Shown piece by piece: positions 8,707-60,529 of a DNA stretch of 64,000 bases. The position numbers were made by a program, and so were the translations under genes. The stretch covers positions 70,759-134,758 of the forward strand of contig NMRA01000378.1 in the NCBI GenBank assembly GCA_002633005.1. The letters are read 5' to 3'. This DNA is from Phoronis australis. Lineage: Eukaryota > Animalia > Phoronida. The notes below the pieces were generated by a model, which did not search any database, was not told the origin of the DNA, and saw only the letters and a list, made by a program, of their open reading frames with translations. Position 1 is the first letter of the stretch; every line of letters starts with the position of its first letter.

Positions 8707-10227
8707 TATTCATATACATTATTTGAATCATTGTTTCTGTAAATTTTTTTGCCCTGTCGGTTCTGTGGAAATGTAACTTGACTTCGCGGACGCCGACGAG
8801 CTAGTAAGTATATTTGCAGTTTCGCGGCAAGTTCACCAAAATGACCAGTGTGCACATTTTTTCATTGCCCCACTTGTATAGTCTTTTCGTGACTGGAAGC
8901 TTAGTTTACAACTTTGGGTGGTTTATGTTCGTGATGTCTTCAGTCCGGCCGCGATGGGCCTGACCGGGGTCCGAGCCACTGGCCGGGATAACAAGCGTTT
9001 TGTGTGTTTAGAACTGAAAAAAATCGTAAGTGTAAATTACAACACGCAGCTACCTCGGTATTTTCTCCTGTCTGTATTTTGCAGACTAATAATTTGAATT
9101 AATCATCAAACAGACCCCATACTCCCGCGACCGGCCTTGCGATAAATTGGCCTTCCGAACTTTGTAGGCTACGGTACCCTACGTTCAAGTACCTAAAAAT
9201 CCGTCACAGCGAAATAAAACTAACACGTTTAATAACTCGATGTAATTTTAAGGGTTTTACATCGAACTTTGGTGATTTATTGGTGTAAAACGATGAATTC
9301 AGGCGATTAGCTGACACCAGTAAGCGTGTTGTAACCTGCTGAACACACTGCATTAGAACCTCTGACGTCATTGGTTAATTTCAACGCCTCCGTCTGCCGT
9401 CAGGTGCTAGCCAAAAGAGCTGAACTTGCTGTTGTCGAGTAGAACTACTCGGTCTAAATTGATACAAAATAGGTTTGTTTTGGGTAGTATTCTCCTTTAA
9501 CATACTTAACATTACTGCTACTTGTGATTCATTGCCCCAATTCGGTAAAATCGATGTCGCAAATTTTGTGAAACTGAATTATCGACAGTCAGATACTGTA
9601 TGAGATCGCATGGGAGCAAACACGGTTCTGGAAAAGAAAATATTCTAGTAACGCCTAAAATTGCCTAGATGGCGTCCAGAGAGGTCCTTCTAAAACGATG
9701 TTTCGGTGAATGTTAAAGAAAGTTAGGTAATTTATACAAATCTTCATAACACACTTCCCAATTGCAAAACCTAGATGGGCTGGCCCGTGTGTGTGCACGA
9801 AGTGAATGTCTCGAGCTTTGGTGTTTAATTTTCTGCTTTTTCCGCAATAAATCTCGGTTACGGATTCAGAACCTAGATCAAGTGATATTTTTTAATTTTT
9901 TAACCGTCCAGTTGCGCCTTGCTCAGAGACACTTTTTAAAGATGTTGGATTTGGGCCAAATTAGCAGTACAAAATTGAAAACGATAACATTGTACGATGT
10001 CCAAGGTTTCGAAAGAAAATAACTGATGTTCATTGAATTTTATACAATCGTGTATTAATAAAGTCAAATCGGATACGGGTAACATAGAATGCGGGGCTGG
10101 GAGACAAAAACTCGTTCATCAGTATGCTGAGTGAACCTTGGTTTTACGTTTGCAGTTTGTTAAACAGTCAATTAGTCTACATGGAATTCGTCTCTGAAAC
10201 TCCCTGTTGTACAAATCACACGTAACG

Positions 10228-11528
10228 TCAACCACATTGATCCGTTGACGCTCTATCTACAGCAGTGCACTCTAGCCCAACGTCAAAAAATGCCAGAGCA
10301 ACGTCTTTTTCAGAATATCGCTGAGATTTTGCCGCGTCCAACACGCCACAGACAGCCTTTGCCATCCCCGTACATCTCTTCCACGACATGACATTAGCCA
10401 GCCAAAACACTACGTATGCTCTCTTAACACCCCACCCCGTTTTAGTAGCCAATTTGTAAAAGGCTCTGTTAAAAATTCCAGAAGTGTAGTGGATATCTAC
10501 GGAATCTGAATAATCCCGGAAGTGGGATTTCGATTTGCCGTCGATTCCTGGCGTGTCGAAATAACGCAATGCATCCAAAACGCCACCTTTCTTTATCGAC
10601 CGAGCGACTTTCCAGTCAACTTTTCCGTTTAAGTAAAATTCCAATGCTTCTCCCGAGATATCTGCGAAAGATTCCGAAATTGCACCAGATTGTAACCGAT
10701 TTTGTAAGCGAGAAGTTTCCAATATAAATGCGTGTGCCATTTCGTGACCAACGACGTTTTCATCAGTCATAGGATGGAAAACTGTGTGGCCGTCCCCCAG
10801 GAAAACAGACTTTGAAGGAGGGTCGTAACGTGCAATGTCAAGCTTGTCGCCAAAATGAACCCTAATGGTCATTGGGGGGCTCAGCACAACTCCTCTTTCA
10901 AACCACGCCTGGAACATTTCAAACATTTTTGTCCCATGGTAATGGGCGTCGTTGATTGGTGACCTACCACCATTTATTGCGTCCGTGCTGCCTGTAGCGC
11001 ACGAATACGTGTGCGGCAAGATGTTGCTCGTCTCCGACGTGAACTTGTTGTGGACGAGGACTACTTTCGAATTCGACATGACGCACTGTAACGCTTGGCC
11101 CTCTGACACGTCTAGGAAACCTTTGTGCTGCCCAAAATAATACTCCCCAATCTTGTCATTGCCCCCTATTCCTATTGCGTTTAATCTCAAACCACTTTCT
11201 CTCCACAGGCTAAGGACAGTACTTGTCTCTGCGTCAACCCAAACGGTATACAAGAAAGTATCAACAATCACCCTACGTTCCCTAATAATCCCACAAATCT
11301 GAATTTCGTAATATTGCCGAACAACCGAGTCATTGCGCACATCTATCGATAACTTGAAGTCAGTCACTTTCCTCACATAAGGTCGCCGTAGACCCATCGT
11401 CAGCAGATTTACCACAGCATGTTTAGCGGCTTTTTTGGCCTTGTGACGCGGTGGTAATTCAGATTTTGGCCTGAGATGCTGGATGCCTACGAACAAGGTA
11501 CCGTACACGTTGTCTGTTAAAATTTGTC
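10228..11528 (-). CDS. M4 peptidase exon 5 (end of FTP, PepSY and the complete mature catalytic domain)
   Basis: Acceptor tttcag|GA at 11529-11530. Motifs present: PepSY-like VWVDAETSTVL, GIGGNDKIGEYYFG (LasB mature start GPGGNQKIGKYTYG), SPINDAHY, HEMAH (10732-10746), GAISESFAD, LRYF, DIHYTSGIFNRAFY and GWGVKRAY. Stop TGA at 10228-10230. Confidence 0.95.
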
Positions 11529-14500
11529 CTGAAACATAAATGTTCATATGACTCAAAATAATTTCGCAAAATCCTTTGTTTCTATGTACCAAACTAAAAA
11601 AGTATCGTAAGTGTAGATGTAAAGCTCGAAAAGTAGAATTCAGATTCTAAAAGATAGCTTTAATACTGTGGTCAAAAAAGCACACTAGATTTTAGAAAGT
11701 CATCCACTGATCCACACCAACCATAACACACAGAACAAAATTTTGTATTGAATTAGAACACAAATGACAAAAACTATTCGATAGAGTACACAGATTAGAC
11801 TTCAGGCTTTACATACGATTTGCTACTGTGCGAATAAATCTACACTGAAATGGTGCCCTATAGTCGCTGCAGTAACAGTTCTGCACATTTCAAAATAATA
11901 TTATTACTTTGAAACTGTATGGCTCAATAAACAGGTCTATACTACAATAGAGGTGTATATGTATTTCTCATCAATCAGGACCTTACTGGAACTGTGAAAC
12001 TATGTAAGTCAACAAATAGGACTGAATTTTTGAAGTGAAACAAACGGGGTTTTACTTGGACAATACAACCGTACTGTAGGACTCAGCAAACAGAACATTA
12101 GTTGGACAGTGCTTGGGAAGCTGTTTGTTACAAACAGGACTTTACTTGGAGAGTGAAACCGAATGTCTCAACAAACATCTCGCAAGAAATTAAATGTAAC
12201 TTGTTAAATGCATTTATCGTCATTATTTTGACATTTGTCTCTTTAGTTTGATACTAACCCTTAGGGTTTATTTTGCATTACTCATCTCTATTTATAGCCT
12301 CAAGGGCCTACTTTTGTATTCATACAAGTCTCTACGCGACACCTGATTGGTCGCCCATATTTCCTTTGTTCAGTTCAGCCTGGTCTCTCTCATTCAGCCA
12401 CCTACCTTGTCGTCTACAAGACCTACGTTCGTTCTCTGCGTTTTTCCCCCACCCCCCATACCGGGTGTCGGTTCCACTTTCTCTTTTCTCCTAAACATTT
12501 CCTGTTAGGTTTTTTCAATTTTTGTGTTCATGTTCTGTACTTTTCCTTTACGCCCTTCAGGCAGTTCTTTTGTTTTGGTTCCCTCTTTCAGGGCTATTCA
12601 TTGTACACGCCGGTGGGTGTTTTGTCCATGCCCATCTTGCAGAGTCTTAGTTAGTTTTATCTATTTACGTCATAATAAATGACATTATTCNTGACTCACA
12701 ATAGAAGCCTGATAAGAGTGAAGGTGGATAAATGCGGTGTTCCTACAGTTTCTTGTTTTAGTGGATGTGTTCACGACATGTCCATGCCCATCTTGCAGAG
12801 TCTTAGTTAGTTTTATCTATTTACGTCATAATAAATAACATTATTCGCAATCCTCCTCTGGTTTTACTCTGCAACATAGCTCGTGGCTTACCCCGGGCAA
12901 AATAGATTACGATAAATAAGACTTTACTAATTGGGCAGTAAAACTGCATGTGCCAACAAACGTTTCTTTAGAAACGAGACCTTACTTGGACAGTGAAACT
13001 GTATCTCGTAATCTTCACACCTCTTCCTTTTTTTCTGGTCCTTATTCAAGCAAACAATGCCATCGACCGGGCTACATTTTATGGCCAGTAGATTTGGAGG
13101 AATCCCGGTGTCAGCGGTGAATTCGCAACATTTTTTCCCCTTAACACGACACACAGCGTAATCTGGCGTACCTCCATTACAAACGTTGATGCCACTTCGC
13201 TGAAATGATGCAATTGTTGCATACATGAAGAAACTATAGCATTGTTATTTTGCTGGTTCTAACTTGAGGCAAATGAAGTAAAATGTGACTGCTAGTTACA
13301 GCTAAATGAGTGCATATTATAGGGAAGAACTTGTAGCCCCCAGACACAATATATAGTCATTAAATAAAATCGCCACGTTTCAAGATTTCAATTGATTAAA
13401 TAAAGGCGAACTTCATTTCTATTTGTTAATACATGTAAGTCAATTCAGAAAATAATCGAGATCACCGGAACTTTAGCACAGAGAATACTTTTGAAGGATG
13501 ATTCTCTTGACTGCCTAAAAGGCTCGCACAAGACAGTGGATTGTACACCATTGATAGTTCTAAGAGAAACTATCTTTGTTTAGGCAATAGTCAGTCAAGA
13601 GTAGAAATGATTCCATGACAGAAATGCACTGTCCAACCACGGTTGTCGTTACGACGCCAAAGCCGGCAAAGTCCGTCAAACGAAATTGACGTAAGTAGGT
13701 AGACTGTAACATACAGTGGGTACCTCGAGAGTAACCACTGAGCTTGTTTTAACCCTCTTGAAGAAAAGTTTGTATTGGTCAGAATAAGAATAGATTTCAA
13801 CGGAAACGTGTAAACAGGAAATATAACAAGAAACTTTGGAAACTGTAGGCCTCTTCTTGCATGGGGTGAATCGTCCGAGTACCGTGATAACAATTATCTA
13901 ATTTCCTCAACGGGCCAACTCTCTCTGAATGATATAAAAATATACTATTTGTGGAAATAAATCGGAGACATCTTACTTGCATATCTGGTATTCTTTCAAA
14001 GTCTCCAAATCCATCTGGTGTATCTATACTCGTGAAGTTGGTCCAGTAGCCTACGTGGGAAGAAAATCAGGTTATAATCCATAGTCAGTCCCGAGTAAAA
14101 TACCTGCGTCACAACCTCGTTACGAGAGCTGAAAATGCGACCAAGGTTGTCAAAATAAAGTTCACTTATTATGACAGAACAAAAACACAATAAATGTTTG
14201 TGAAACTAAGATAAAATCAGTAAAATATAATAATGTCTGGTAAGATCAGCAATAAAAAACCCACACAGAGTTACAAGGTTGTGACAAAAGTGACGTGAGG
14301 TAGTGGGCAATCGAGTAACACTGAAATGTTTAGACACGTGCGTCTGTGTAGCTGACACAAGACAATAGAACTGAAACATGTAAAAGCAAACAAAAGACAT
14401 GTTACAGAATTGAGGAAAAAGGGGGTACAAGGGAAAGGAACTCATATGTTCATATCAATCTATTGAAAAAGGGAAATAATATATGTTGCACTTGCGCTGT

Positions 14501-15596
14501 ACATTAATGCACGTACAGGAAATTCTCTGTCGTTCCAAATGGTTTGATGGTCGCTTACGGAAACGGAAATACATCTTCCAATACACTGATCAGGGAAAAT
14601 ACTTACAAATTATTTTCATTTTAATATCTTATTTCTGTACATACAACAACATTCACCAATTGGTCACCGTAATTTTATGTACCGTTGTCATAACAATTGT
14701 GACGTTTCACAATTTCCCAACGTGTACATGTACCTTTTCGCATTGACACGAATATTGAAGCGTCCTCCACTCTCGTGTCTAGGTAGTATTGGTGAGCTCG
14801 GCACCACGTCTGATTATTCAGGACTATGTCCTCGCTAAGCTTCACTGTGTTGTTCAGTCCAAGGTCGAAGTAGTCGTTAGGATCGGGCGACACAACATTC
14901 TTCTTTATGAGTGACGCCGCACTGCGACTGCGGGCGGGGATATGGTATTTCAAGGCCCTCGCAGGCAACCCACCTGCAACATGACCACTAATTTAAATAG
15001 AGTGTGTTTTCATTCGACCGTATGCACTGCAGGGACAACTTTTGCTTGTTCAAAAAGCAAAAATGCGCACGTAAAACTGCCAAGCGATGTAACATCACTC
15101 CGCGTGTTCAGCTTAATTGCATAACAGGGAGCCAATACATAAATGAAATCAAACAGGTGCTTACTGTTTATTGTTTCTTTATTTTTTGTGTCGAGTACTT
15201 GTAAACGTTCAAATTGGGATTGAGATTTACTCATGCTCTAACATTCCTGTTTAGTAAACGCTCTTTTGCGGCAAACCCACCAACGCATCATCAGCACAGC
15301 TGAGAACGTTAGGGGTTCAGTGATACAATACATACCAATGAACTAAGTTGCTTTGTTACCCCCACTTCTATGCTCTTTATCAAACCTCCATTCACACCAG
15401 TGAGTGAATACAAGAACCAGTAAACTGAACACACGAGTTCACTGAACTGTTTCTACTTCGGAAAGGTAGCCGTCGATGCTCCACGGCAAGCTCTAGCTGG
15501 TGCAACGGCGTCTCATTGTGCACAGTATTTCTTCTTTGCAAATATCTTCGCCTACTTACACGTTAACAAAATGTATACGCAGACTGCACGCGCCAT
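10228..15596 (-). CDS. Secreted M4-family (thermolysin/pseudolysin/vibriolysin-like) zinc metallopeptidase preproprotein with an inserted Mucin2_WxxW domain; join(15560-15596,14734-14973,13977-14050,12986-13199,10228-11528), 1866 nt, 621 aa
   Basis: All four introns have GT..AG ends, and the phases (1,1,0,1) join into one open frame. Domain order: signal peptide, FTP, WxxW, rest of FTP plus PepSY, M4 catalytic and M4_C. Confidence 0.85.
12986..13199 (-). CDS. M4 peptidase exon 4 (Mucin2_WxxW C-terminal half)
   Basis: Acceptor tttcag|CGA in phase 0, matching exon 3; donor CCA A|GTAAGG in phase 1. CSPVDGIVCLNKDQ...CEDYEIQFHCP is the G-x-x-C-x-N-x-D-Q...C-x-D-Y-E-[IV]-x-F-x-C motif. Confidence 0.85.
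13977..14050 (-). CDS. M4 peptidase exon 3 (Mucin2_WxxW N-terminal half: GYWTNFTSIDTPDGFGDFERIPDMQ)
   Basis: Acceptor cacgtag|GC, donor CAA|GTAAGA. Matches the W-T-x-[WF]-x-x-x-D-x-P-x-G-x-G-D-x-E signature. The ORF track missed this exon. Confidence 0.8.
14734..14973 (-). CDS. M4 peptidase exon 2 (propeptide, FTP-like N-terminal part)
   Basis: Acceptor ttgcag|GT, donor AAAG|GTACAT, 240 nt, phase 1-1. WCRAHQYYLDTRVEDASIFV resembles the FTP R-x-x-Q-x-Y-x-G-x-x-V pattern. Confidence 0.8.
15560..15596 (-). CDS. M4 peptidase exon 1 (start and signal peptide MARAVCVYILLT-C)
   Basis: ATG GCG CGT GCA GTC TGC GTA TAC ATT TTG TTA ACG T|GTAAGT, a perfect donor in phase 1. Joined to exon 2 it gives MARAVCVYILLTCGLPARA-LKY, a hydrophobic core with an A-X-A cleavage motif. 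Confidence 0.7.
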
Positions 15597-16728
15597 CGAT
15601 CGCCGATTCGAAACAAAATACTGGCCCAGACTATTGCTTATGTATGTTCCTCCACCCCGGTAACTGCACACATCAATTTTAATTCCCTGTCATACAGCAA
15701 TGTACATTTGCGACAGACGTGTAATAACACGTGCTTAAAATAGGTGAAGAGCGGAAGACAGTCGTCCGATGTGAGTTATCCTTGTAGATCTTGTCGGTCG
15801 CCAGTGTATCAACTCAAAAGTGGCCCTTTTACTGAAACTACGTTGGTCAATTATTTCTCCCAATAAACGTTTTTTCAATGGCAATTGAACACACGCGGTG
15901 TTTCATGAAGAAAATTTATTGTCCCGACGCATGCTTATCTTGAACATTGATGCTGCGGTGCGTTGTTTAGTTATCTAATTGCAATACAAAAAAGTAACCA
16001 GATGTCAGCTGAAATGGGTTGGAACTCCTTTTTCAGCGTAGTCTGGTGCCAACCACAATCCCTTGAATTTATCTGTACCTCGATCACTACAAACGAGCAC
16101 TCGTTGTAATAAAACATAAAGAATGGACACTAAAATCAGTACGCTAAGAATGTTCTACTGAAATATGCATGGAGCTCTACGGAATAAGTTTCGAACAAAA
16201 TCTTTGAATACTTCTTTCATTTGATCACATTAAATTTCCTTGGAGTGGAGACTTGACGAAGAATCCCCAAAACAACATCACACCTTTAAGCCGGCTAAGT
16301 AACGACAAGACAGACGCACTTTGCACAGACCTGGATTTGTTTTCACGGACGCTCTTGAAGCAATACCGAACATTTATTTTCGAGCGCAACGGATAGTTTT
16401 TTGAGCTCAGTGTCAAATTAAAGGTAATTATACTCTGATTTTGTATTAGGTGTTGTTTATAACCAAAGTATCAAGGGTTGCTGGTTTCTAACGTGCGTGA
16501 TTTCATGGGTGATAAACGTGTGGTCAATCTGAAATCTCCGCCAAACGCCGAGTGTATGTTGTACTTCAAAAAAGAGTAGCACACAAGAAGAAAATAATCA
16601 TTGGTACATGTAGGTCTACCACCGGAATATCACCAGGGCCTAGTGTCGTGGCACCGGCTAAGGACAGATCTCAGTAGTGATGTCGAAAAAGGAAAGATTA
16701 GAGAGATTCTAAGTTTGGCAGATGTAAA

Positions 16729-16850
16729 TACATGTATATACACATACAAAGACAGATGCACACACACACACACATGCACACATACACACACATTCACACA
16801 CGCACCCACACACAGACACACATATATATGTATATATATACACACGTGAC
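16729..16850. repeat. Imperfect (CA)n/(TA)n microsatellite
   Basis: cacacacacacacatgcacacatacacacacattcacaca...tatatatgtatatatata. Confidence 0.9.
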
Positions 16851-17258
16851 ACAATTCAACCAATAAAGACGGTAACTGAGCCGAGAATCCACACAATGTG
16901 ATAATGAGGACACAGCAGAATAGCTTACATAAAAATTTAATACTTAAAAATATATACTTTCTTCTTATAGGATCTTGAGGCGTTATGGACATTCGATCAA
17001 ACATCGTTTCTTTAAACTTTGGGGCGTACTTCAAACCCAGTCTCTCGCCCATTATAACCAGTTACGCTATGCTTTGGCATTACTGTCTCTAGATTCATGA
17101 TCAACATGCATGTACATGTCCCGAGTAATATTAATGAAAAGAAGACCGATTACAAGTAATAGATAGTGAACAAACATCAGTAAAATAAAAAATGCTAGTC
17201 TCTGGTAAGATGGGCAATAAAAAGCGCCACTAGAGATGTTGTTAGACAGCTCATGAGT

Positions 17259-17733
17259 GACCCGTTCCAAACGCCGTAACAGCATTCAAGAGCCTACTAA
17301 ATGCAAGACGTTACATGCTTGCAGCACACTGTAATATATTACTATAATACATTATATACCGTAACACTCTTCAACGAGTGCCACAGTGCCCACAATGAGA
17401 CGGCATTTTCTTTGAGCAAAGAAAACAAGTTTGAAGTCGCGAGACGTAAGAGCTCTGAGATAGCGGTACTTTCATCTGAGGCTGCCATTTTGTAAATTCG
17501 GCCCGAAATACAGATTGCTGCTAGTCTCGAACCTGAACTTAAGCGAAAATCTTGGAAACAAGAGTAAACAGACTTGATCCTGGAGCTCACTGAAAAACGA
17601 ATGTAGGACTCGTTGAAGAGTGTTACGGTGTGTAATGTATTGTAGTAATACAGTATAATACAGTGAGCTGCAAGCATGTAACGGCTTGCATTTAATAGAC
17701 TCTTGAATGGTATTACGGCGATTGGAACGGGTG
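17259..17733. mobile_element. MITE with ~120-bp TIRs and 7-bp TSD CATGAGT (P-like CA..TG ends)
   Basis: (G/C)ACCCGTTCCAA...TTGGAACGGGTG, with CATGAGT at 17252-17258 and 17734-17740. The element is absent from the paralogous site near 1230. Confidence 0.9.
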
Positions 17734-17802
17734 CATGAGTAGCATTCTTGATTTATCAGTACGCACTGCGACTTAGAATCACTGGCGGTCCACTCGTGAG
17801 GG

Positions 17803-26023: not shown

Positions 26024-29000
26024 GGGGCTATTCGGAAAATCCACAATCACTAGAGGGCGTGCGTGTACTAGTGGTGATAGATTAACAGCTTCGATTTCGC
26101 GAGCCCTTTAAATACATGGTGAAATGGCTTGCAGCCGTGCCAACTGAATCTGAGATTGCGTAAAAAGGGTGCTTCTATGAGAGGAAGTGAGCACGACCTC
26201 ATACAAAGGTAAGGTTTGTGATCATTTTAACGATTATTACATGATTATTCTACCGATGCCTGTTAACTGAGGCACTCGCCGATGTCGACTTCGCGGCAGT
26301 CAGTCGCCAGCCAGAGTCTGGTTAATCTTTGTATGTTGTGATATGTGATACGATACTTGACGTAGCAATCGGGATCTTTTCGTACATCAAAGCATTATTA
26401 TTGTTTGGAATGATTTCTAAAAGTTTATCAGTGACAGTTACATCAACCAATGCTGAATATTTATGCTGTCAACTCGATACAGGTTAATGAGTTAAGATTA
26501 CAATCCAATCCCAATGGCAAAGGGTACGTGAGTGATAAATATCCATTGCATTAGACTATTTGTTTACTCCCTATCATGTCTTCTGGAAATCTATTACACG
26601 TTGAAATGGAAATCTATTACGTCAGTTTTCACGTAACCTTTGGTTTTTAGGTTTGAAGGCTACTACCGTGCAGAGGAGATATGCATCGCTTCTGCACCGT
26701 CCCTGAATGGACAAAAATTGGTTTTTAGCATTTGACTGCAGCTAACCAACAAGATCTTCCCATCCAGTACAGATCTGTTGTCAAAGCCTACTTTCAATAT
26801 TTGAGACAACGAACAAAGCCTTTGAAAAGGAACAGCTATTTTTAAAGTCATTTTGTTAAATTACTTATTCAGGTCCCGAGGGGGGATTGTCATGGGGGGG
26901 TTGTAATATTTGGTACAACTGAATATGTGGAAGTAACAGGTAATGCATGTTTGGAGAAAAGAGCATGGTGAGGTAATTTTTAACCTTCACGAAGTCCCTT
27001 CAAGTTGATTTCATGAAACTGTTTTGCTACTTGTATCAATTGCAAAACCACGAAAATATATTACATTTTCCGAATTCACAGTGACTGAATAGCCTTAGCC
27101 CATGCCTTGAAATGTTGCAAGTCGTTATAAATTCAAATGACTGCCATTTTTGTGAAAATTGCATTTTTGATTGTGCCTTATTATTTGTAATTACTAGTAC
27201 TCTTAAACAACAGAAAGATTATCCATCATTTTTAAATGACCCAAGTCTTCATATCTTCTATTAGAAGAAAAATTAAAATTAGTCTGAGAAACGGTTCCCT
27301 CAACCTTAGTCTAGAAATATGCTTGACAGACCCATGAACCTATAATCTGAGTTTAAAATTGCTGAAAGTATCAAAATTAAAAAGGCTTGAAAATGGGTAA
27401 CAAAGGTTTGAAGTTGTCTCAAAAAACTTGTATATTTTACAGACGAGTGATGCTTTAAAGAATTGTTATGGCTAGGGATAAAAAATAAAGACACAGTTTT
27501 ATGCAATACTCATTATATACACTCTTGGTTTCTGAAAATAGTAATTATTTACTTTTATGTGAAACTGTAGACCGATCACCACATATTTTTGAAAAACAGG
27601 GATAACATATTTGTTCCAGGTTCAGTGACATTTTAAGGCCACTTCAAGCTGTATCATAGACAAGCTTTGTTACTCCGTTCTCTTCCCACAGCACTTCCAC
27701 ACACCAGCAGTGCTGCATGGCACAATGTGCAAGTCAGTGGTCCTGGAGAAATGTGAATCGCAGTACTAAGTTACCATAAGACAATGTGCCAGTGGAGTGT
27801 CTGTGTATCCAGACGAACTATATCTGACTGCTACACAAATAAGCCTTGTTGGTGAGGATGCCCTTTCATAGGCAATGAGTCATGTGTGGACAATAGCTTA
27901 TTTCCTTTCCTGGAAGAAACATGAGGGACTGAAGCTAAAGAAGACCTAGTAACACTCTGGTCTAGCTCAGAGTCTGATTTTGGGCTCAAAACGATTCAAG
28001 TGATATGCTGCTGTGTTTACCTTCAAGGGTCTAATTGTGGATGTTATTGAGGCTGAATGAGGTTACATGAAAGAAAGCCACGTGTTGAAACTGGACCTTT
28101 TTTACAAGCGCTTCTATAGGCCATTGAAACTAGAACCCAGTGAAATGAAAGCCAAAAGCTGAGTGACATTAAATTTTCCTTTCAGAAGAAAGGCTTTATA
28201 CTATTGGTAAAAACTTTTCAATTTGGTACAGATTATGGGGAAATGACATTCAGTGACTGCATCGATTGTCTCATTGTATGTTTTCAATTGTAGCTAGCTG
28301 GATAAGAATCTGCTATGCACAAGATTCGAGAATAAACAATTATCAGTGTATTTAAAAACAAATGGCAAACTGAAAAAGCACAGAAAGAAACAACATTGCG
28401 AGGGAGTCCATAATCAGGCATATCAGGTGCTGAATTTCTGAATTACGTTCAATTCTCTCAGGTTATTGCTGAAGGATTGCTTTTCACTTTGTCCAACGGT
28501 GAAATAGATGGTCAGGCGGTTGGTTTCAGTTGTTTTTTCTTGCCTGTAACAGAATAGAAATATTAGCAAATTGTAAAAGAAAAGACAAGACAAAACTACT
28601 TTTGTAAGGCAGAACATACTTGACATTTCATCTTCATGTTTATGTGTAGAAACTAATAACCTTTGTACCCAAGTCTTATTTAATATCTGAATTAAAATAT
28701 GTGAAACAGGCTAAAAGTGATTTAACAATGTGTATTTTTCATGACACTTAAAATGTGCTTCTGATCTCAACAAGTAAAATTCATTCTAGGTGTCAATTTT
28801 TTTCCAATGCAATGTTACGACATTTACTGAATTAAGGCTTATTCATGTTAATTCGATAACTGAGCTGGTGGTCCTGGGGGTGGGGTCCACGATAAAATAA
28901 GGAAACTCACTCATCTAGAGAATTTTATTGGAAACAGCATAGTTTTGAAGAGAAACTGCTGTGAAAAAGTCACTCTTGACTTCTGTGCATCACGTACCAT

Positions 29001-29522
29001 ACACCTCTTATTTTGGGAGCACTCCCACCCAGGACAATATGAATATGTGCTGCTAGCCTACCCGGCATCGGGTGAGTTTCCAAAAAGAAACACTTAGTTC
29101 CACTCAATAAAACTGTTATTCAGTGGGGTAACTGGTGGGGATAACATCACCGAACGATGTTGATAGAAACTGATTGCTAAAAACTTACCAAGTAATGTTG
29201 TGTAGTCTCCGAATGGAACTGCATAGTCATAGACATAGAGCACACACGGGGCTTCAGCATCCACACACTTTTTGTCAGTTAGTTGACCCTGTTGACCGCA
29301 ATTGTCCACGAATATAGTAACCTTAGGTCTTTTGGGAATTTGTGGCCACCTGTCGAAGACTTGCACCAGGGAAATTAGCAGTAATAAGGCTTAGCGCGAC
29401 GACGTATTTTGATAAAAATTCCATCTTTTACCAGTTGTTCACATGCAGACAGCCACGCATGCGCAATTCAATCACCACTAGTACAGCAGCGACACCGCGA
29501 GGAGAATTCTCCGAATAGCCCC
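26024..29522. mobile_element. 3.5-kb degenerate TIR transposon with AT TSD (ISL2EU-like), copy A
   Basis: AT|GGGGCTATTCGGA...TCCGAATAGCCCC|AT, plus a subterminal inverted pair GTACTAGTGGTGAT/ATCACCACTAGTAC. A second copy at 38530-41569 has unrelated flanks. No intact transposase ORF. Confidence 0.85.
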
Positions 29523-29928
29523 ATTCAAAAAAGGGTGAGGTTTTATCTTGCTGACTATACAAAAGAGTGTGTATAATCTTAATTTCACAGCAACAAACAC
29601 CCTCCGAAATAACTGAATACTCTGTACGACTGTAGGATGGCAGTCAGAGGCACTGCTGAATGGCACTGCTGAATGCCACCACTACAAGCGATGTCAGTCA
29701 TAATAAAACTATTGCTAGACTGGTTATTGTTTGTGTGTTTAGGACCATTGACTCTATTTTTATGCTCCTAACTTCTGTGTGTAGTGACAAGTGTGCCAGT
29801 GTATTATACATTACAATGACAATGTCATAAATAGCAGTATTTCAGCATATATCCTTATCTGACCCAATTCAACCTTCACGGTAATCACGGGAGCTTACAT
29901 AACATACATGAACATGTTAACATACGAG

Positions 29929-38529: not shown

Positions 38530-41500
38530 GGGGCTATTCGGAAAATCTGCAACAACTAGAGGGCGTGCGTGTACTAGTGGTGATAGATTAACAGCCTCGA
38601 TTTCGCGAGCCCTTTAAATACATGGTGAAATGGCTTGCAGCCGTGCCAATTGAATCTGAGATTGCGTAAAAAGGGTGCTTCTATGAGGGAAGTAAGCACG
38701 ACCTCATACAAAGGTAAGGTTTGTGATCATTTTAACGATTATTCCATGATTATTCTACCGATGCCTGTTCACTGAGGCACTCGCCGATGTCGACTTCGCG
38801 GCAGTCAGTCGCCAGCCAGAGTCTGGTTAATCTTTGTATGTTGCGATATGTGATACGATACTGGACGTAGCAATCGGGATCTTTTCGTACATCAAAGCAT
38901 TATTATTGCTTGGAATGATTTCTATAAGTTTATCAGTGGCAGTTACATCAATCAATGCTGCATATTTATGCTGTCAACTCGATACAGGTTAAATTTGAGT
39001 TAAGGTTACAATCCAATCCCAATGGCAAAGGGTACGTGAGTGATAAATATCCATTGCATTAGACTATTTGTTTACTCCCTATCATATGTCTTCTGGAAAT
39101 CTATTACACGTTGAAATGGAAATCTATCACGTCAGTTTTCACGTAACCTTTGGCTTTTTAGGTTTGAAGGCTTGTACCGTGCAGAGGAGATATGCATCGC
39201 TTCTGCACCGTCCCTGAATGGACAAATATTGGTTTTTAGCATTTGACTGCAGCTAACCAACAAGATCTTCCCATCCAGTGCAGATCTGTTGTCAAAGCCT
39301 ACTTTCAATATTGGAGACAACGAACAAAGCCTTTGAAAAGGAACAGCTATTTTTAAAGTCACTTTGTTAAATTACTTATTCAGGTCCCGAGGGTGGATTG
39401 GCAAGTGGTGGGTTGTAATATTTGGTACAACTGAATGTGTGGAAATAACAGGTAATACATGTTTGGGGAAAAGAGCATGGTGAGGTAATTCTTAACCTTC
39501 ACGAAGTCCCTCCTAGTTGATTTCATGAAACTGTTTTGGTACTTGTATCAATTGTAAAACCACAAGAATATATTACATTTTCCGAATTTACAGTGACTGA
39601 ATAGTCTTAACTCATGCCTTGAAATGTTGCAAGTCGTTATACATGTACATTCAAATGACTGCCGTTTTTGTGAAAATTGCATTTTTGATGGTGCCTTACG
39701 ATTTGTAATAACTCTTAAACAACAGAAAGATTATCCATCATTTTTAAATGACCCAAGTCTTCATATCTTCTATTAGAAAGAAAACGGTTCCCTCAACCTT
39801 AGGCTAGAAGTATGCTTGACAGACCCATGAACCTGTAATCTGAGTTAAAAATTGCTGAAAGTATCAAAATTAAAAAGGCTTGAAAGGTTTGAAGTTGTCT
39901 CAAAAAACTTGTATATTTTACAGACAAGTGATGCGTTTAAATAATTGTTATGGCTAGGGATAAAAAATAAAGACAGTTTTATGCAATACTCATTATATAC
40001 ACCCTTGGTTTCTGAAAATAGTAACTATTTACTTGTATGTGAAACTGTAGACCAATCACCATGTATTTTTGAAAAACAGGGATAATATTTTTGATCCAAT
40101 CTGGAGTACTTAATTATTCATATTTCAATATTTGTTCCAGGTTCAGTGACATTTTAAGGCCACTTCAAGCTGTATCATAGACAAGCTTTGTTACTCTGTT
40201 CTCTTCCCACAGCACTTCCACACACCAGCAGTGCTGCATGGCACAATGTGCAAGTCAGTGGCCCTGGAGAAATGTGAATCGCAGTACTAAGTTACCNNNN
40301 NNNNNNNNNNNNNNNNNNNNNNNNNNNNNNNNNNNNNNNNNNNNNNNNNNNNNNNNNNNNNNNNNNNNNNNNNNNNNNNNNNNNNNNNNNNNNNNNNNNN
40401 NNNNNNNNNNNNNNNNNNNNNNNNNNNNNNNNNNNNNNNNNNNNNNNNNNNNNNNNNNNNNNNNNNNNNNNNNNNNNNNNNNNNNNNNNNNNNNNNNNNN
40501 NNNNNNNNNNNNNNNNNNNNNNNNNNNNNNNNNNNNNNNNNNNNNNNNNNNNNNNNNNNNNNNNNNNNNNNNNNNNNNNNNNNNNNNNNNNNNNNNNNNN
40601 NNNNNNNNNNNNNNNNNNNNNNNNNNNNNNNNNNNNNNNNNNNNNNNNNNNNNNNNNNNNNNNNNNNNNNNNNNNNNNNNNNNNNNNNNNNNNNNNNNNN
40701 NNNNNNNNNNNNNNNNNNNNNNNNNNNNNNNNNNNNNNNNNNNNNNNNNNNNNNNNNNNNNNNNNNNNNNNNNNNNNNNNNNNNNNNNNNNNNNNNNNNN
40801 NNNNNNNNNNNNNNNNNNNNNNNNNNNNNNNNNNNNNNNNNNNNNNTTTTTTCCAATGCAATGTTACGACATTTACTGAATTAAGGCTTATTCATGTTAA
40901 TTGATAACTGAGCTGGTGGTCCTGGGGGTGGGGTCCACGATAAAATAAGGAAACTCACTCATCTAGAGAATTTTATTGGAAACAGCATAGTTTTGAAGAG
41001 AAACTGCTGTGATAAAGTCACTCTTGACTTCTGTGCATCACGTACCATACACCTCTTATTTTGGGAGCACCCCACCCAGGACAACATGAATATGTGCTGC
41101 TAGCCTACCCGGCATCGGGTGAGTTTCCGAAAAGAAACACTTAGTTCCACTCAATAAAACTTTTATTCAGTGGGGTAACTGGTGGGGATAACATCACCGA
41201 ACGATGTTGATAGAAACAAATTGCTAAAAACTTACCAAGTAATGTTGTGTAGTCTCCGAATGGAACTGCATAGTCATAGAGCACACACGGGGCTTCAGCA
41301 TCCACACACTTTTTGTCAGTTAGTTGACCCCGTTGACCGCAATTGTCCACGAATATAGTAACCTTAGGTCTTTTTGGGAATTTGTGGCCACCTGTCGAAG
41401 ACTTGCACCAGGGAAATTAGCAGTAATAAAGCTTAGCGCGACGACGTATTTTGATAAAAATTCCATCTTTTAGCAGTAATGTTGTTTACATGCAGACGGC

Positions 41501-41569
41501 TACGCATGCGCAATTCAATCACCACTAGTACAGCAGCGACACCGCGAGGAGAATTCTCCGAATAGCCCC
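38530..41569. mobile_element. Same 3.5-kb AT-TSD element, copy B (contains the N gap 40297-40846)
   Basis: Same TIRs and AT flanks; collinear with copy A apart from SNPs and small indels. Confidence 0.85.
40297..40846. other. Assembly gap (550 N)
   Basis: Run of N. The equivalent interval in transposon copy A (about 27776-28797) is about 1 kb. Confidence 1.
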
Positions 41570-44500
41570 ATTACCGTTGGACTTGTCTCGTTTCTGGCGG
41601 CACCGACAACATGGCGACTTTTGCTGAACTGAAAGGCATGTTCAATCGGCTACTTTGTAATTTGTGAAGATTTAACGTTGATACATTTTGACAAACGTTG
41701 CTACAAAAAGAAACTTTGTTCAATTTTCGTGTTTTTTGTGCAAAGATATAAGATATAAGATGTATTCGAATTATTTTACTGTAAATTTCCCATTCAGGTG
41801 ATCTTACACTAAGCTAAAAAAATAGTTGAAATGTTTGACTGTCAACTGCTGTTCAAGACTTGATTTGGTGTCACAAGATGATTCAAATTTTTCTAAGTTT
41901 TAAGTCTCAATTGCTTTCAAGTCATGTTTTGTAACTTATTTCTTCTTAATTCAGGTTATCAAGTCAACAATATGAATAATCTTAATTTGAGAAATAAGCT
42001 ATGTTGGATTGTGAAGCTTCAAGCCTCTAATTCTTGTTCCTTGCAACTTCATATTTTTTAAATGACGCTTGTCAAATTCTGGTGTAAGGAAACACTATTC
42101 CGTCACCATGGTAATAGTTACATGTATGTCCACTTTCATATCATTGAAACTGTTGCTGTTGAATAGTGTTTGTAATGCTAAATGTTGTAAAGTATTGTGC
42201 ATTTTAAGTTACTTATTATGTTAAAAGTTTTAATCATTTTGGGTTAATGAATAAAAAATGATAACATGTTGTATAGGACTTGTCATACTTATGTGGTCGA
42301 ACGAGCCCCCTGCCTCAGTCACAGAAGCACGAATTCCGAAAAAAAGTAGAAAATGAGACAATATTCCACTAGAAGACAGGAAGTACCAAAATTTAGGAGT
42401 CTCAGTGCAATTCATAGCTCTGAACATACCCACTGAATCTTATAGTAAAAGATAGACATTCCCAAAAATTCCAGCCCCCCCTCCATTCTTTTAGGTTGAT
42501 GCGCTCATACAAAGTCTGGGTAAATCTCTATTGAAAGCCAACAACTTTGCACAGTTCGCCAGAAGTACCCAAGTTCTAAGTAAACCTCGTTTGAGTGAGC
42601 GCTGTGGCCAGCGACCAGTTAGGCCTAAGGGTAGCCTTGGCGCAAAGCTGTATAGGCCTCAGTACTAACAAGCTGTATTTTGACGATAGCCTTCACTGGT
42701 AGCTGGTGACTGAGGCTAACTAAGGTCTGCCGCGGCAGTGTGACACAGGACTAACCAGCCCGTAATTTCATGCAAGTGTCTGAAACTACCCTTGAATATA
42801 TGCAGCATTTATGATTTGACCATTTTACTTCGACAAAACAGCTTGCAACCGCATGCATTTACCGTTCGCCAGTGTCTGGTCTCGATCCGATCCGCACCGG
42901 GTCCGATAGGCTGCGGTCCCGAGTCTGGCAAAATAATTTCTGTCAAAATTTATTCGCCACATTTCTTCAGCAAATTCGATAAAATTGTCCGTAGTTTAAT
43001 TTTATTAAACTTAAGGCGAGCTGTCGATTATTTTATCCCCGTTGCTGGCTGGTAACAGTACAGGCACTGCTCCAGTCGCACTGACGGCGTTTTCTCGGCC
43101 TGGGTTCCTGAATGAATTGTACTTCCGGGGTCGCGGCAAGTTCAAAATGGCGGTGTTTCTTCGGGTGCGAATCGTGAGTGGCGCGTTCATTTAAATTTTT
43201 TTCGAGTACGGATCGTGTATTAGTTATGGGGCAGGTACTTCTTGGATCCTTATAATGTCCTCTAACCATGTAATAAGGGTTAACAACTCGTGAGAAAAGG
43301 ACTTTAAATCATTATTGATGCCGTCAAAACATGGAAAAATAAGAAACTAGGAAATCACCCTTACATAATATTTTTTGCTTTGAAAACCTTGATAAATAAA
43401 TCCGAGATGATGGCAGACGGTATTGCCATAGTGATGGGATGTATGTGTGAGAGTGGCGAATGTCACTTTGCTACTGACTTGACATGAGGTTTGTGTCAAG
43501 TGTGTTTTCTGGTTTAAGCTATGCCTCTACACCATCTTAACCACATAAATTCCTAATGTGACACTATCTGGGATCAGCCACTGAATCGCTTTAGGCCTAT
43601 ATTATGTACCACCATCGCGTGCACTTTTAGCGTTGAACGCGACTGAGAGGCAGTATGGCAGTTCAGAACTGTGTTAGCCTGTGCGTGTGTGGGGGAGACG
43701 CAGAGAGAGTGCACTTCTTAAGATCTTAAGGGGGCTGCTTTCTTGGGAGGCGGAGTTATTTTTTGTGAGGAAGAGTGCTCTTTTGGGAGGAGGTATTTGC
43801 ATGGGTTGGGGGGTGTCCGACACGGCGTTGCACTTATACGCAATTCCATATACCATGATTAACACGCCATCAAGACTGTGTGGAAATGGCCGCACTCGTC
43901 AGTGTCTAAGTTAAAGCCCACTCGATCAATGACATGTCTAGTAATTTATGGTGCTCTGAGTCCTATTTGACCTGTGTGTAATCGAGAATGAACTTGGCCT
44001 AAAGGGATATTTTTTGGTTTAATTTACGGCTGAAATGCTTTTTGAGATTATTATTGTAGGCTACTGGATAAACTTTTTGCATTTACGAGCTTTGGCCAGA
44101 GCTAACAAATCCATTGTGTTTTTGTGATTTTATACCAAATCGCCAATTTTGTCGTTGCCTGGCAAAACGTTTGTTGATATCATGATACTAGGTGACTTTA
44201 CCATTACGCTTAAAATACTCAATTGACATCAAGACATGGAACATCATTCAGCGGCCCAGCGTTCGGCTGTTAAGATAGTTAGATTTCGCGATCCTGCTAA
44301 TTTCTGTAAAATCAATTTTTCGGACAGGATTGATGTCTCTTTAACTCGTTGCCGGGTAATTTGTACATACAGGTTGTACACTGTATGTAGGCCTATATAC
44401 GGAGCAAGTTAAAGCGGTCCAAAAATCATGCGAAAGCTGAATTCCTCGTCAAAATAGTCTTTCCTCGTAACCGAGAATAAAGAGGAATAAATTGTGACTA

Positions 44501-47500
44501 AGCCGTTCCCTATTTAGAATTCCTTCCCCTTTGTAGTTGTTACCCTTAGGATTAGTCGCCATGACAGGTAAAGCGATATAATGTCTGATTACTTTTGTCT
44601 GATACTGTACTGGATTTTCATAAAATTTGACACACAGAATACTTATGGCGATTACACTTTTTCTTTTTCCTATGAAGTCTAAGTAATATGCCCCCCTAGT
44701 AGTGTTCCATCTGCAACACCGCTGAAAGGATCATTTCAAAACTTTACAGGTATGTTGTTGTTTGCATGAAGAAGATTGATGTTGATTGTTAACTGGTCTA
44801 TCTTCTGTGGTGCCTGCCATATAGCAATTTACATGTAGCTTTCTTAATGTATCCTTCTATATCGACCAAGCTCCATGATGCATTTTCATGATGCATGTAC
44901 ATGACAAATAGTTTTCTGTTAACGGAGACACCGACAAACTCCTATTTTCGAATGGATTCAACATGTTCTACACCCACTACAGACTGAGGTCCTTTTCATT
45001 ATTTTTGTCACCTGCCTCTCTGTCATCCAAAGCCATGAGTTCCTATTGAGATGATCAAGGCTCTTTAGCTTCCCGAGTGGCTTCTTTTGCCTGTGCCGTA
45101 ATATATACCAACTTCTTTAATGGACATTTGTAAGATTTGGTGTATATGTAGCCTACATGTATGCGTTCCAACTCACAGTGAGGAGAGTATGCTCAGAATT
45201 AATTTCTGGACGTGTCAGATTACTGTGGCATCCTTTGGTGGCAATTTAGGATTTTCATATGGTTATACATCTACCAAATTTCTTCATGCATGAAATTTGG
45301 CAAACAGATGTCAAGGAAACCGAACGGCAGCGATTGCCTTGTTTAAGATGGATGAGATGTATGCTGCGCCCCCTAGTGTTATTTATATCTTATAATTAAC
45401 GATACTTAAACGAACACCACAAGCTAGAAACACTGTTAGTGGTGCAGTCATAGGTGCATTTTATACGATGCTTGTACACGATGCCAAGAAACTTATGTGA
45501 TGAGATGGTTTCATTATATTTCTTTTGATCACCATTTCGCACACTTGTTGCCCCGAGATTCCACTCTTGTCAATTAATTTAAAGGTGGACCAGTGGTGAA
45601 CTAATTTGTCTTGTTCATATCTTGAGTTCAGGCAAAGGCTGCTGGTTACATTTCTATGGAATAAAAACTGAGGAGATGTCTTCGAGTGTATTGCAACTCA
45701 GTTTCCATAAATATATACTCAGTGTAATGATACATGTAAGACACGTAACTTCACCACGCTACTCTTCCGGAAACCTCACTCAAAATAATCGAGCTTCTTG
45801 TAGGCAGTGTGGATTCCAAATTTTGTAAAAGGTCAATAGCAGTAACAGTGGTGCTCAATTGTGGACAATTTTGGACTCAGATTCTTTTACAACAAAGCAG
45901 CTACAATTATTTTTTGGAAACCCGGCCAATGGGGCGTCTTGCACAGGCTAACAAGCCCGCAAGAAAGAAAATATTTTGGGGAAACTAGAACCAATTNACA
46001 GATGTCAAGGAAACCGAACTCAGTGTAATGATACATGTAAGACACGTAACTTCACCACGCTACTCTTCCGGAAACCTCACTCAAAATAATCGAGCTTCTT
46101 GTAGGCAGTGTGGATTCCAAATTTTGTAAAAGGTCAATAGCAGTAACAGTGGTGCTCAATTGTGGACAATTTTGGACTCAGATTCTTTTACAACAAAGCA
46201 GCTACAATTATTTTTTGGAAACCCGGCCAATGGGGCGTCTTGCACAGGCTAACAAGCCCGCAAGAAAGAAAATATTTTGGGGAAACTAGAACCAATTCGA
46301 ATTTAATCCCACGCGCTTGCCAATGCACTCCCTGTCGCAAACAGAGAATTGACCAACACAAATGAGGTTACGCCAAGAATACTTGGCTCCCGACCCCTCT
46401 GTTTCCTTAGACTCTGAATATATTCGGAAAATACAAATCTCAAATGTGGATTTCCACGATTGTTTTAAGAAAAATGAGGCAGTCGCTAATACGAAGTTGC
46501 GCGACGGAACAGCACCAGAGACAAAATAACGTGTGAAAGATGACACGAACACTGAATCGGAAACTTGAATAGAATAATGTGACCCACAAGCCCCCCCCCC
46601 ACACTCACCAATAGATTACAGACCTTGTGAAGAAATTAACTTGTATGCACGTCTCTTAAACCAATCCCCGCAATACACCATGTTCTCCACACTCTGCTAC
46701 CATTCAAGTGTTCTGAGAATTGGTAAAGGATTTTCGTATCCCAAATGGCATTCGCAAATTTTTAAGTCAATTTCGTTTATTCACCCCACACAAAAATGTA
46801 AAAATAAAAAATCAAAGGCAAAGTAGATACAAAAACTTTAATGTCAAAAATCCTAAATGCAACCAAAACGCCGAAACGCAGCGCGGTTGTCGCTCAGACG
46901 AGTGAGCTGTTAACATCATTGTCCAAAATGGAGTAGCTCTCGTGCAGTGCACATGTATATGAAAACCTCACGGCCGCAACTAGCCTACCTACACGTTCGC
47001 CGACCCATTAGTTCTACACCAGTGCAGCGCCCTGTAATGGTCGTCTGTTCTGCACCGGCAATGCACTCGAGCAGACTAATAAAACCGCAAAACATTGTGA
47101 TGGATGAAACGCAAGATTCTACACATTTGGCCACTCAGATTACCCTTGATGTATGTCTGCAGGACCACTATTTGGTTTCGGTTAGCGTCATGTGTCATAA
47201 TTCAAGGATCCCGTTAAGATGACACCCTAAGACACGAATCTGTTCTCTTCAGTTAAATCACTTGCAGAACACCGTTCCATGGACAAAATTGTTTTGTGAA
47301 CTGTCTATAAATTAACTGAACAAGCCACCCCCCCTTGAACAGGTAATTGGGCACTTTTTCTTTCCGTACACTTGTGAATGTCAGTTTGTGTGTTTAAAAC
47401 CGCTCACTCAGTTGCAAACAAGTTTAACAGTCCCATTAGCCAAAACTGACCAGTGGGTAGCAGTGCTTGGTCAAGGATAGCTGCCAAATAAATAGCAAGA

Positions 47501-50570: not shown

Positions 50571-60529
<9,959 letters not shown>

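What the first reader, a model, noticed from the sequence alone, without database searches (positions are those of the whole stretch)
10228..11528. Pseudolysin/vibriolysin-type protease embedded in an animal genome: candidate domesticated horizontal transfer
Seen: the mature domain follows the gammaproteobacterial LasB/HapA pattern (GIGGNDKIGEYYFG start, SPINDAHY, DIHYTSGIFNRAFY, GWGVKRAY, and Cys positions matching the two LasB disulfides at QCVM/YSCA and VCGV/LECT). It lies in one 1301-nt exon, with all introns in the pre-pro region, and it is linked to an intron-containing calmodulin gene. Established: M4 is mainly bacterial with a patchy eukaryotic distribution, and it is absent from vertebrates. 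Inference: an old bacterial acquisition that later gained introns. Related genes probably exist in other marine invertebrates, so the event may be ancient.
Basis: partly seen in the sequence, partly recalled or inferred. Interest (0 to 1): 0.7.

Follow-up and report, generated by a model that had tools for sequence, protein, structure and literature searches.

The report
Bacterial-type protease carrying a mucin module
This spliced, expressed animal gene encodes a zinc-protease-family protein built like the secreted elastases of bacteria, likely taken from bacteria long ago, and an animal mucin domain has been spliced into its safety-catch region, where it would likely anchor the unactivated enzyme in mucus.

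Summary
A five-exon gene (minus strand, 15596 to 10228, 621 aa) encodes a signal peptide, a propeptide and a LasB/vibriolysin-type M4 domain in one 1301-nt exon. Stranded RNA reads from a roughly 90%-alike organism support all four splice joints, so bacterial contamination is excluded. (1) Exons 3-4 encode a mucin CysD (Mucin2_WxxW) domain, flanked by phase-1 introns and inserted at a hairpin turn of the FTP propeptide. No skipping joint was listed, and 0 of 307 homologues matched this CysD. (2) The zinc ligands and catalytic Glu, His and Arg are intact, but near-invariant Asn112, Trp115 and Tyr155 (LasB numbering, recalled) are replaced, so activity may be altered. The domain sits inside the bacterial LasB-type clade (100/99). 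A shared origin with Lingula M4s and seven unnamed look-alikes is favoured but not shown, and the donor is unresolved. The calmodulin link is scaffold-level only (about 32 kb, across a 550-N gap). Ten literature searches found no description. Verdict: new variant of a known kind, interest 0.5.

The parts
15560..15728 (-). Exon 1: 5' UTR plus first 37 coding nt (ATG at 15596); start of a predicted signal peptide (about residues 1-19)
   Evidence: X1 contig and reads cover 15558-15728 and join to exon 2; GT donor and hydrophobic stretch. Signal peptide judged by hydropathy only.
14734..14973 (-). Exon 2 (240 nt, phase 1-1): N-terminal propeptide up to the FTP-like strand before the hairpin turn
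   Evidence: joint to exon 3 in 38+6+7 reads; the 41 unaligned letters in the exon 1-2 contig joint fit an acceptor at 14973
13977..14050 (-). Exon 3 (74 nt, phase 1-0): first part of the inserted mucin CysD/WxxW domain (W-T-N-F in place of W-x-x-W)
   Evidence: no Pfam hit on its own, assigned by motif and position before exon 4
12986..13199 (-). Exon 4 (214 nt, phase 0-1): rest of the CysD domain, 8 Cys
   Evidence: Pfam Mucin2_WxxW 32 bits, cut-off 22.4; MUC5AC 8ov0 E 0.023; Atlas top hits PF13330; joints
10228..11528 (-). Exon 5 (1301 nt): second half of the split FTP hairpin, PepSY-like region, mature M4 domain, stop
   Evidence: joint from exon 4 in 23+3+8 reads
10231..11181 (-). Predicted mature LasB/vibriolysin-type M4 domain (about residues 305-621); boundary inferred from alignment
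10732..10746 (-). HEMAH zinc motif (H450, E451, H454); third ligand E474 at 10674-10672, R510 at 10566-10564, H535 at 10491-10489
   Evidence: H450, E451, H454 and E474 match 397 of 397 homologues; R510 and H535 match 396 of 397
10825..10836 (-). Altered edge-strand motif I420-A-R-Y423 where homologues have N-A-F-W
   Evidence: Ile in 0 of 396 homologues (Asn 383); Tyr in 6 of 397 (Trp 389)
10699..10701 (-). N465 in place of the near-invariant Tyr
   Evidence: Asn in 3 of 396 homologues, Tyr in 389
12187..12913 (.). Host repeat in intron 4, abundantly covered by RNA reads on both strands

Best explanation
This expressed five-exon gene encodes a predicted secreted M4 zinc-protease precursor, likely of old bacterial origin, whose propeptide carries a spliced-in mucin CysD domain that would likely tether the unactivated enzyme in mucus. 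Shown: exon structure, splicing, expression in a close relative, the intact zinc and catalytic core, and the CysD splitting the FTP hairpin with no skipped form listed. Inferred: a vibriolysin/LasB-type gene entered an invertebrate lineage, probably in the same old event that gave Lingula its copies. It gained introns in the pre-pro part, and a phase-1 CysD module was shuffled into an exposed turn. The propeptide probably still folds and inhibits the enzyme. The CysD would bind other CysD-bearing mucins non-covalently and hold the zymogen on a mucosal surface until the propeptide is cut and the mature enzyme is released. The loss of Asn112, Trp115 and Tyr155 equivalents probably slows or narrows catalysis and self-activation. 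My odds: real spliced gene 0.98; bacterial origin 0.8; CysD by exon shuffling 0.9; still an active protease 0.6; mucus tether 0.45.
For: Splicing and strand: all four joints in stranded RNA. The joint table is complete: exon 2-3 in 45 reads, 3-4 in 21, 4-5 in 31, and no exon 2-5 joint. CysD. Insertion site: a profile of 292 homologous propeptides aligns straight across the junction once the CysD is left out (16.5 bits, against 5.5 with it and at most 11.9 for 500 shuffles, 472 reported). In a model of homologue P0102 (pLDDT 89) the matching place is the two-residue turn between strands 92-98 and 101-112 (mapping by eye). Flanking introns are both phase 1. Core residues. Tree. Selection: 30 of 57 listed coding differences to the relative lie at third positions (p 0.002), none makes a stop. 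CysD forms non-covalent dimers in MUC2 (PMC3195396, abstract) and first appears in Bilateria (PMC4948705, passages). M4 propeptides act as chaperone and inhibitor and are cut off autocatalytically (PMC10017501, section 9).
Against: No activity, localisation or tissue data. The query departs at 25 of 96 columns conserved in 90% or more of homologues, tied for the most in the set. The CysD has 8 Cys rather than the 10 of MUC2 and lacks the second Trp. Its third-position excess alone is not significant (9 of 17, p 0.075). Pfam FTP and PepSY do not hit the separate exons, so the propeptide is very divergent. The query's tree position is unstable: inside the Lingula group (with two long bacterial-looking rows), outside it (20% of bootstrap trees hold all ten). 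The seven unnamed look-alikes are not verified as animal. No fungal or protist M4 was sampled.
Confidence: 0.55

Rival explanations
1. Same gene and origin, but the protein is a weak or dead protease that is never processed and works as a zinc-binding, CysD-anchored structural or binding component of mucus or matrix (for example a decoy for bacterial protease inhibitors or substrates).
For: Asn112, Trp115 and Tyr155 equivalents replaced; longest ingroup branch in the trees; from memory, Asn112 changes in thermolysin block self-maturation.
Against: All three zinc ligands, the catalytic Glu, His535, Arg510, Asp478, Asp533 and three acidic calcium-site positions are kept, which is unusual for a long-dead enzyme.
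Confidence: 0.2
2. This copy comes from a separate, lineage-specific transfer from a Vibrio/Alteromonadales-type bacterium, independent of the Lingula-type animal family.
For: The careful pro+mature tree put the query outside the 9-row Lingula group (81/100). Best identities of the mature domain are to bacterial-type rows (44-47%) rather than to Lingula (40%). P0096 (M4 plus two ShK domains) groups with Vibrio/Veronia rows, which hints at repeated transfers.
Against: The tree with the query held in the Lingula group had a higher likelihood than the free one (+6.4); the quick tree gave that group 100 SH-aLRT; one clade was not rejected on the mature domain (p-AU 0.379; 0.258 with P0096).
Confidence: 0.25
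3. Vertical descent: LasB-type M4 was present in early eukaryotes or opisthokonts and was lost in most lineages; the bacterial likeness reflects conservation or transfer in the other direction.
For: No fungal, protist or choanoflagellate M4 was in my trees; the nesting test is only marginal (p-AU 0.040); the deep backbone is poorly resolved.
Against: The animal-like rows sit among a much wider bacterial diversity of the same subtype; the mature domain is intron-free; a bacterial-type PPC domain is found on four of the look-alikes.
Confidence: 0.12
4. Bacterial contamination or a mis-assembled chimera.
For: Scaffold gap between this gene and calmodulin; no DNA reads of the source individual were available.
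Against: GT-AG introns removed in RNA from three raw-read runs of one study and one older contig set; an animal domain in the same transcript; repeats shared across the gap; exon GC 0.41-0.52 in a window of about 0.40.
Confidence: 0.01

Closest known systems
Pseudolysin (P. aeruginosa LasB, PDB 1ezm/8cr3) and vibriolysin MCP-02 (3nqx/3nqy/3nqz), peptidase family M4
   Same: Pre-pro-mature layout, HExxH plus Glu zinc site, catalytic His and Arg, four aligned Cys; 231 and 201 bits. Like LasB, no PPC domain was detected.
   Different: Four spliceosomal introns; CysD inserted in the propeptide; very divergent propeptide; Asn112, Trp115, Tyr155 equivalents replaced; two extra Cys (574, 620) in the mature part.
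Lingula anatina uncharacterised M4 proteins (XP_013384835.1, XP_013378819.1, LOC106154862)
   Same: Animal-encoded LasB-type M4 with FTP and no PPC domain; about 40% identity in the mature domain.
   Different: They keep Asn112 and Tyr155, have an intact FTP and no CysD, and carry a Thr/Gly-rich insert in the mature N-terminus instead.
Mucin CysD (Pfam Mucin2_WxxW) of MUC2/MUC5AC
   Same: Pfam hit above cut-off; C-terminal half aligns to MUC5AC 8ov0.
   Different: Sits inside a protease propeptide rather than between PTS repeats; 8 Cys; W-x-x-F.
Unnamed M4-ShK protein P0096
   Same: LasB-type M4 joined to a domain typical of animals (two ShK).
   Different: ShK is appended at the C-terminus of the mature enzyme; it groups with Vibrio/Veronia rows; its source is unknown.

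Membership tests
Peptidase family M4 | Pfam Peptidase_M4 and Peptidase_M4_C above curated cut-offs | tested here: met
   53.4 (22.4) and 90.4 (24.4) bits
Peptidase family M4 | HExxH plus downstream Glu zinc ligand | tested here: met
   H450-E451-H454 and E474, as in 397 of 397 homologues; the motif around E474 is altered (S473 for N, A477 for S)
Peptidase family M4 | Catalytic helper His and substrate-binding Arg (roles recalled) | tested here: met
   H535 and R510, 396 of 397 each
Peptidase family M4 | Edge-strand Asn/Trp and transition-state Tyr (LasB N112, W115, Y155; numbering and roles recalled) | tested here: not met
   I420 (0 of 396), Y423 (6 of 397), N465 (3 of 396). Near-invariant but not family-defining; lowers 'works like LasB', not membership.
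Peptidase family M4 | Signal peptide plus FTP/PepSY propeptide | tested here: inconclusive
   No Pfam FTP or PepSY hit on the separate exons; custom profile 16.5 bits against shuffles up to 11.9; signal peptide by hydropathy only
Peptidase family M4 | Zinc-dependent endopeptidase activity and self-maturation | not testable with these tools
   needs recombinant protein
LasB/vibriolysin-type subgroup | Groups with LasB-type, apart from Bacillus, Streptomyces and emfourin-linked M4 outgroups | tested here: met
   100/99 in the careful tree of 59 rows; 231 against 58 bits
LasB/vibriolysin-type subgroup | Two pairs of Cys at the LasB positions | tested here: met
   C337, C365, C582, C609 align with pro-elastase Cys; bonding not tested
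Legionella ProA equivalog (NF045902) | NCBIfam cut-off 900 bits | tested here: not met
   209 bits for exon 5 alone
Mucin CysD domain | Pfam Mucin2_WxxW above cut-off | tested here: met
   32 bits against 22.4
Mucin CysD domain | W-x-x-W motif and ten Cys as in MUC2 | tested here: not met
   W95-T-N-F98 and 8 Cys; MUC2 has five disulfides (PMC3195396 abstract)
Mucin CysD domain | Non-covalent self-association | not testable with these tools
   not attempted
Domesticated bacterium-to-animal gene transfer | Integrated in the host genome and expressed | tested here: met
   spliced stranded reads; repeats shared across the scaffold gap
Domesticated bacterium-to-animal gene transfer | Nested with support among bacterial sequences | tested here: inconclusive
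   inside the LasB-type clade at 100/99; sister position rejected only at p-AU 0.040; donor unresolved
Domesticated bacterium-to-animal gene transfer | Absent from unicellular relatives of animals and other eukaryotes | not tested
   no such sequences were retrieved or sought with a suitable tool

The most novel reading that the evidence does not exclude
One old transfer of a vibriolysin-type gene founded an undescribed family of M4 proteases across marine invertebrates, and in this lineage exon shuffling put a mucin CysD into the bacterial propeptide. That makes a zymogen that docks into mucus through its own inhibitor and is released only on activation: a bacterial virulence-type enzyme refitted as a mucosal tool.
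Probability: 0.3. Interest if true: 0.72.

Novelty: new variant of a known kind. Interest (0 to 1): 0.5.

Why it matters
M4 proteases are studied as bacterial nutrition and virulence enzymes, and I found no paper on animal members, although database entries exist (Lingula). This gene shows each step of domestication in one locus: intron gain, capture of an animal module by symmetric exon shuffling, and drift of the active site. A localisation tag placed inside a cleavable propeptide would be an economical way to park a protease in mucus, and it can be tested with one deletion. It would also give the CysD domain a role outside mucins and matrix proteins.

Tried and rejected
No whole genome is held for this window, so paralogues and copy number could not be checked; no second M4 or CysD copy lies in the window. 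The word-index search with exon 5 gave only 7 hits, at 29-40%, and the full scan's best 150 reached 45% at most, so no close orthologue was found. A search with the CysD exon for longer proteins found none at E 0.01 (weak evidence). No relatives in viral contigs. The 9 phage-record hits were not followed. GTDB scan: best 54% to P0170, with 24 of 64 parts scanned; metagenome scan best 57%; neither fetched the DNA of the unnamed look-alikes. The fold of exon 5 with a 3-row alignment failed (pLDDT 40) and was not used. The hhalign step failed and was not repeated. No RNA holder was listed by the index at a useful share; the raw-read runs were laid instead. Rfam: nothing in the window or in intron 4. 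I rejected two look-alikes of the exon 4 end in intron 4 as micro-exons: no joint uses them and they belong to a degenerate short repeat. Ten paper searches found no description of animal M4 transfer or of an M4-CysD protein. The data tables of the metazoan transfer compendium (PMC13342648, PMC12637581) could not be read and may list such genes. The Lingula genome supplement had no M4 term.

Full report
Gene structure. The finding's exon is real: 11528-10228 on the minus strand, 1301 nt, in a 472-codon open frame. Four further exons lie upstream: 15596-15560 (ATG, 37 coding nt), 14973-14734, 14050-13977 and 13199-12986. Together they give 621 residues and one stop, with GT-AG introns of phase 1, 1, 0 and 1. 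The N-terminus has a hydrophobic stretch ending near A-R-A, which I read as a signal peptide from hydropathy alone.

Expression. Three stranded raw-read runs of one study and one older contig set, all labelled organism A, were laid on 9800-17800. Most laid reads are 90-95% alike, so they come from a close relative or a divergent population, not the source individual. About a fifth of each raw run was read. Exon reads all come from the minus-strand transcript. Joints in X2, X3, X4: exon 4-5 in 23, 3, 8 reads; exon 3-4 in 19, 4, 2; exon 2-3 in 38, 6, 7; exon 1-2 in 13, 0, 0, plus the X1 contig. The exon 3-4 joint is reported two letters off my model because the relative differs there. The exon 1-2 joint leaves 41 letters unaligned, which is what an acceptor at 14973 predicts. 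A second lay with X2 and X4 gave a complete joint table and no exon 2-5 joint at the listing threshold of 3 reads. Of 57 listed differences that fall in coding exons (only the best-supported 40 rows of each table were shown), 30 are at third positions (p 0.002), 24 lie in codons that stay silent and none makes a stop. That points to purifying selection on a fast-changing protein.

The mature domain. Both M4 Pfam models pass their cut-offs. The closest solved structures are P. aeruginosa elastase (231 bits) and vibriolysin MCP-02 (201 bits), far ahead of thermolysin (58 bits). Against 397 LasB-type homologues the protein keeps H450, E451, H454, E474, D478, R510 and H535. It differs at 25 of 96 columns that are 90% conserved, tied for the most in the set. 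The notable ones are I420 for Asn (0 of 396), Y423 for Trp (6 of 397) and N465 for Tyr (3 of 396). By spacing these are LasB Asn112, Trp115 and Tyr155; the numbering and their roles in substrate binding and transition-state stabilisation are recalled, not from a call. So it is an M4 member whose catalysis may be slower or narrower than that of LasB.

The inserted module. Exon 4 hits Pfam Mucin2_WxxW above cut-off, aligns weakly to MUC5AC and finds only PF13330 clusters among its shown Atlas hits (recognition score below the tool's threshold). Exon 3 supplies the W-T-N-F start. A profile from 292 homologous propeptides aligns across the exon 2/exon 5 junction once the module is left out: 16.5 bits, against 5.5 with it and at most 11.9 among 500 shuffles. 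In a confident model of homologue P0102 (pLDDT 89; fold matches the vibriolysin enzyme and propeptide) the matching place is the turn between two strands. Both flanking introns are phase 1, the pattern expected from exon shuffling. None of 307 fetched homologues matched this CysD at E 0.1 (a single-sequence query can miss distant copies), and no PF13330 appears in the domain lists. CysD domains dimerise non-covalently in MUC2 (PMC3195396, abstract and outline seen) and first appear in Bilateria (PMC4948705, passages seen). M4 propeptides fold and inhibit the enzyme and are cut off after export (PMC10017501, passages and first part of section 9 seen). From these I infer a mucus tether on the zymogen; this is untested.

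Relatives and origin. The full scan found 4702 representatives at E 0.001; the best 150 are 33-45% identical. By eye I picked seven unnamed proteins (P0022, P0068, P0102, P0109, P0123, P0134, P0170) as animal-like before the maximum-likelihood trees were built, though after a first FastTree had grouped four of them. Five come with a near-identical partner, four of these on long ENA contigs. Their eukaryotic origin is not verified; the GTDB scan gave at most 54% to P0170 in the 24 of 64 parts scanned. Mature-domain tree (59 rows chosen from 404, 306 columns): the query lies inside the LasB-type clade at 100/99 against six outgroups, on a 1.52 branch, with Lingula, three look-alikes and two long bacterial-looking rows (92/86); the other four look-alikes sit elsewhere. 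One clade of all ten is not rejected (p-AU 0.379), nor with P0096 added (0.258). Holding these eleven outside all other LasB-type rows is marginally rejected (0.040). Pro+mature tree (50 rows, 462 columns; outgroups and three short rows left out): the quick search grouped all ten at 100 SH-aLRT; the careful search left the query outside a 9-row group (81/100), with 20% of bootstrap trees holding all ten; the tree with the ten held together then scored 6.4 log-units higher than the free tree, p-AU 0.63. So a shared old origin is the best estimate but is not shown, and no donor can be named. No fungal or protist M4 was sampled.

Genomic setting. The calmodulin gene is real (exons at about 56970, 53550, 51195 and two alternative last exons) but lies about 32 kb away, beyond a 550-N gap. 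Five blastn matches link the two sides of the gap, for example 1263-2371 with 58836-57729 at 87%, so both sides look like the same genome. I did not determine the host taxon. An unreviewed AI note on another piece of this genome calls it likely a mollusc, and another describes an abalone M4 family shared across molluscs; I could not test either directly.

Literature. Ten full-text searches (listings seen) found no description of M4 transfer to animals or of an M4-CysD protein. The library lacks most subscription papers, and the tables of the metazoan transfer compendium could not be read (main-text passages of PMC13342648 seen). Passages of PMC9848320 and PMC5785536 and the supplement of PMC4595640 did not bear on the question.

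Verdict. A real, domesticated LasB-type M4 gene, probably of old bacterial origin. The transfer is probably not unique to this animal. The distinctive features are the CysD inside the propeptide and the altered active-site rim. New variant of a known kind; interest 0.5.

Noticed in passing
window 50600-50571 and 47891-47862 (minus): The calmodulin gene has two candidate last exons, each with an AG acceptor in the same phase, encoding FVTMMTSK and FVKMMTSK; possibly mutually exclusive terminal exons with different 3' UTRs. Not checked with reads.
   Followed up: partly
window 12187-12913: A 727-nt repeat in intron 4 is heavily covered by RNA reads on both strands, and reads join its end back to its start (62 reads in X2, 25 in X3, 41 in X4, one X1 contig): tandem arrays or a circular form elsewhere in the genome. 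It has a 68-nt internal duplication and a 38-nt imperfect inverted repeat; no Rfam match.
   Followed up: partly
window 11906-12182 and 12914-13000: A degenerate repeat of about 44 nt, interrupted by the 727-nt element, includes the end of exon 4 and its donor site, leaving unused look-alike donors in intron 4.
   Followed up: partly
window 28798-29525 and 40847-41572: The stretch starting exactly at the right edge of the N gap is a 96% copy of a stretch 12 kb to the left: a young repeat or an allelic overlap at the scaffold join.
   Followed up: no
protein P0096 (unnamed ENA record, 1873-nt contig): An M4 protease with two C-terminal ShK domains that groups with Vibrio and Veronia rows: a possible second, independent eukaryotic capture; joining it to the other animal-like rows was not rejected.
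   Followed up: partly
proteins P0110, P0161, P0169 (Lingula anatina): Lingula has at least three M4 proteins, each with a Thr/Gly-rich insert ending in basic residues inside the start of the mature domain.
   Followed up: no
window 45717-46297 and 51503-52476: Tandem duplications with periods of 301 nt (100% identical) and 451 nt; the first may be an assembly artefact.
   Followed up: no
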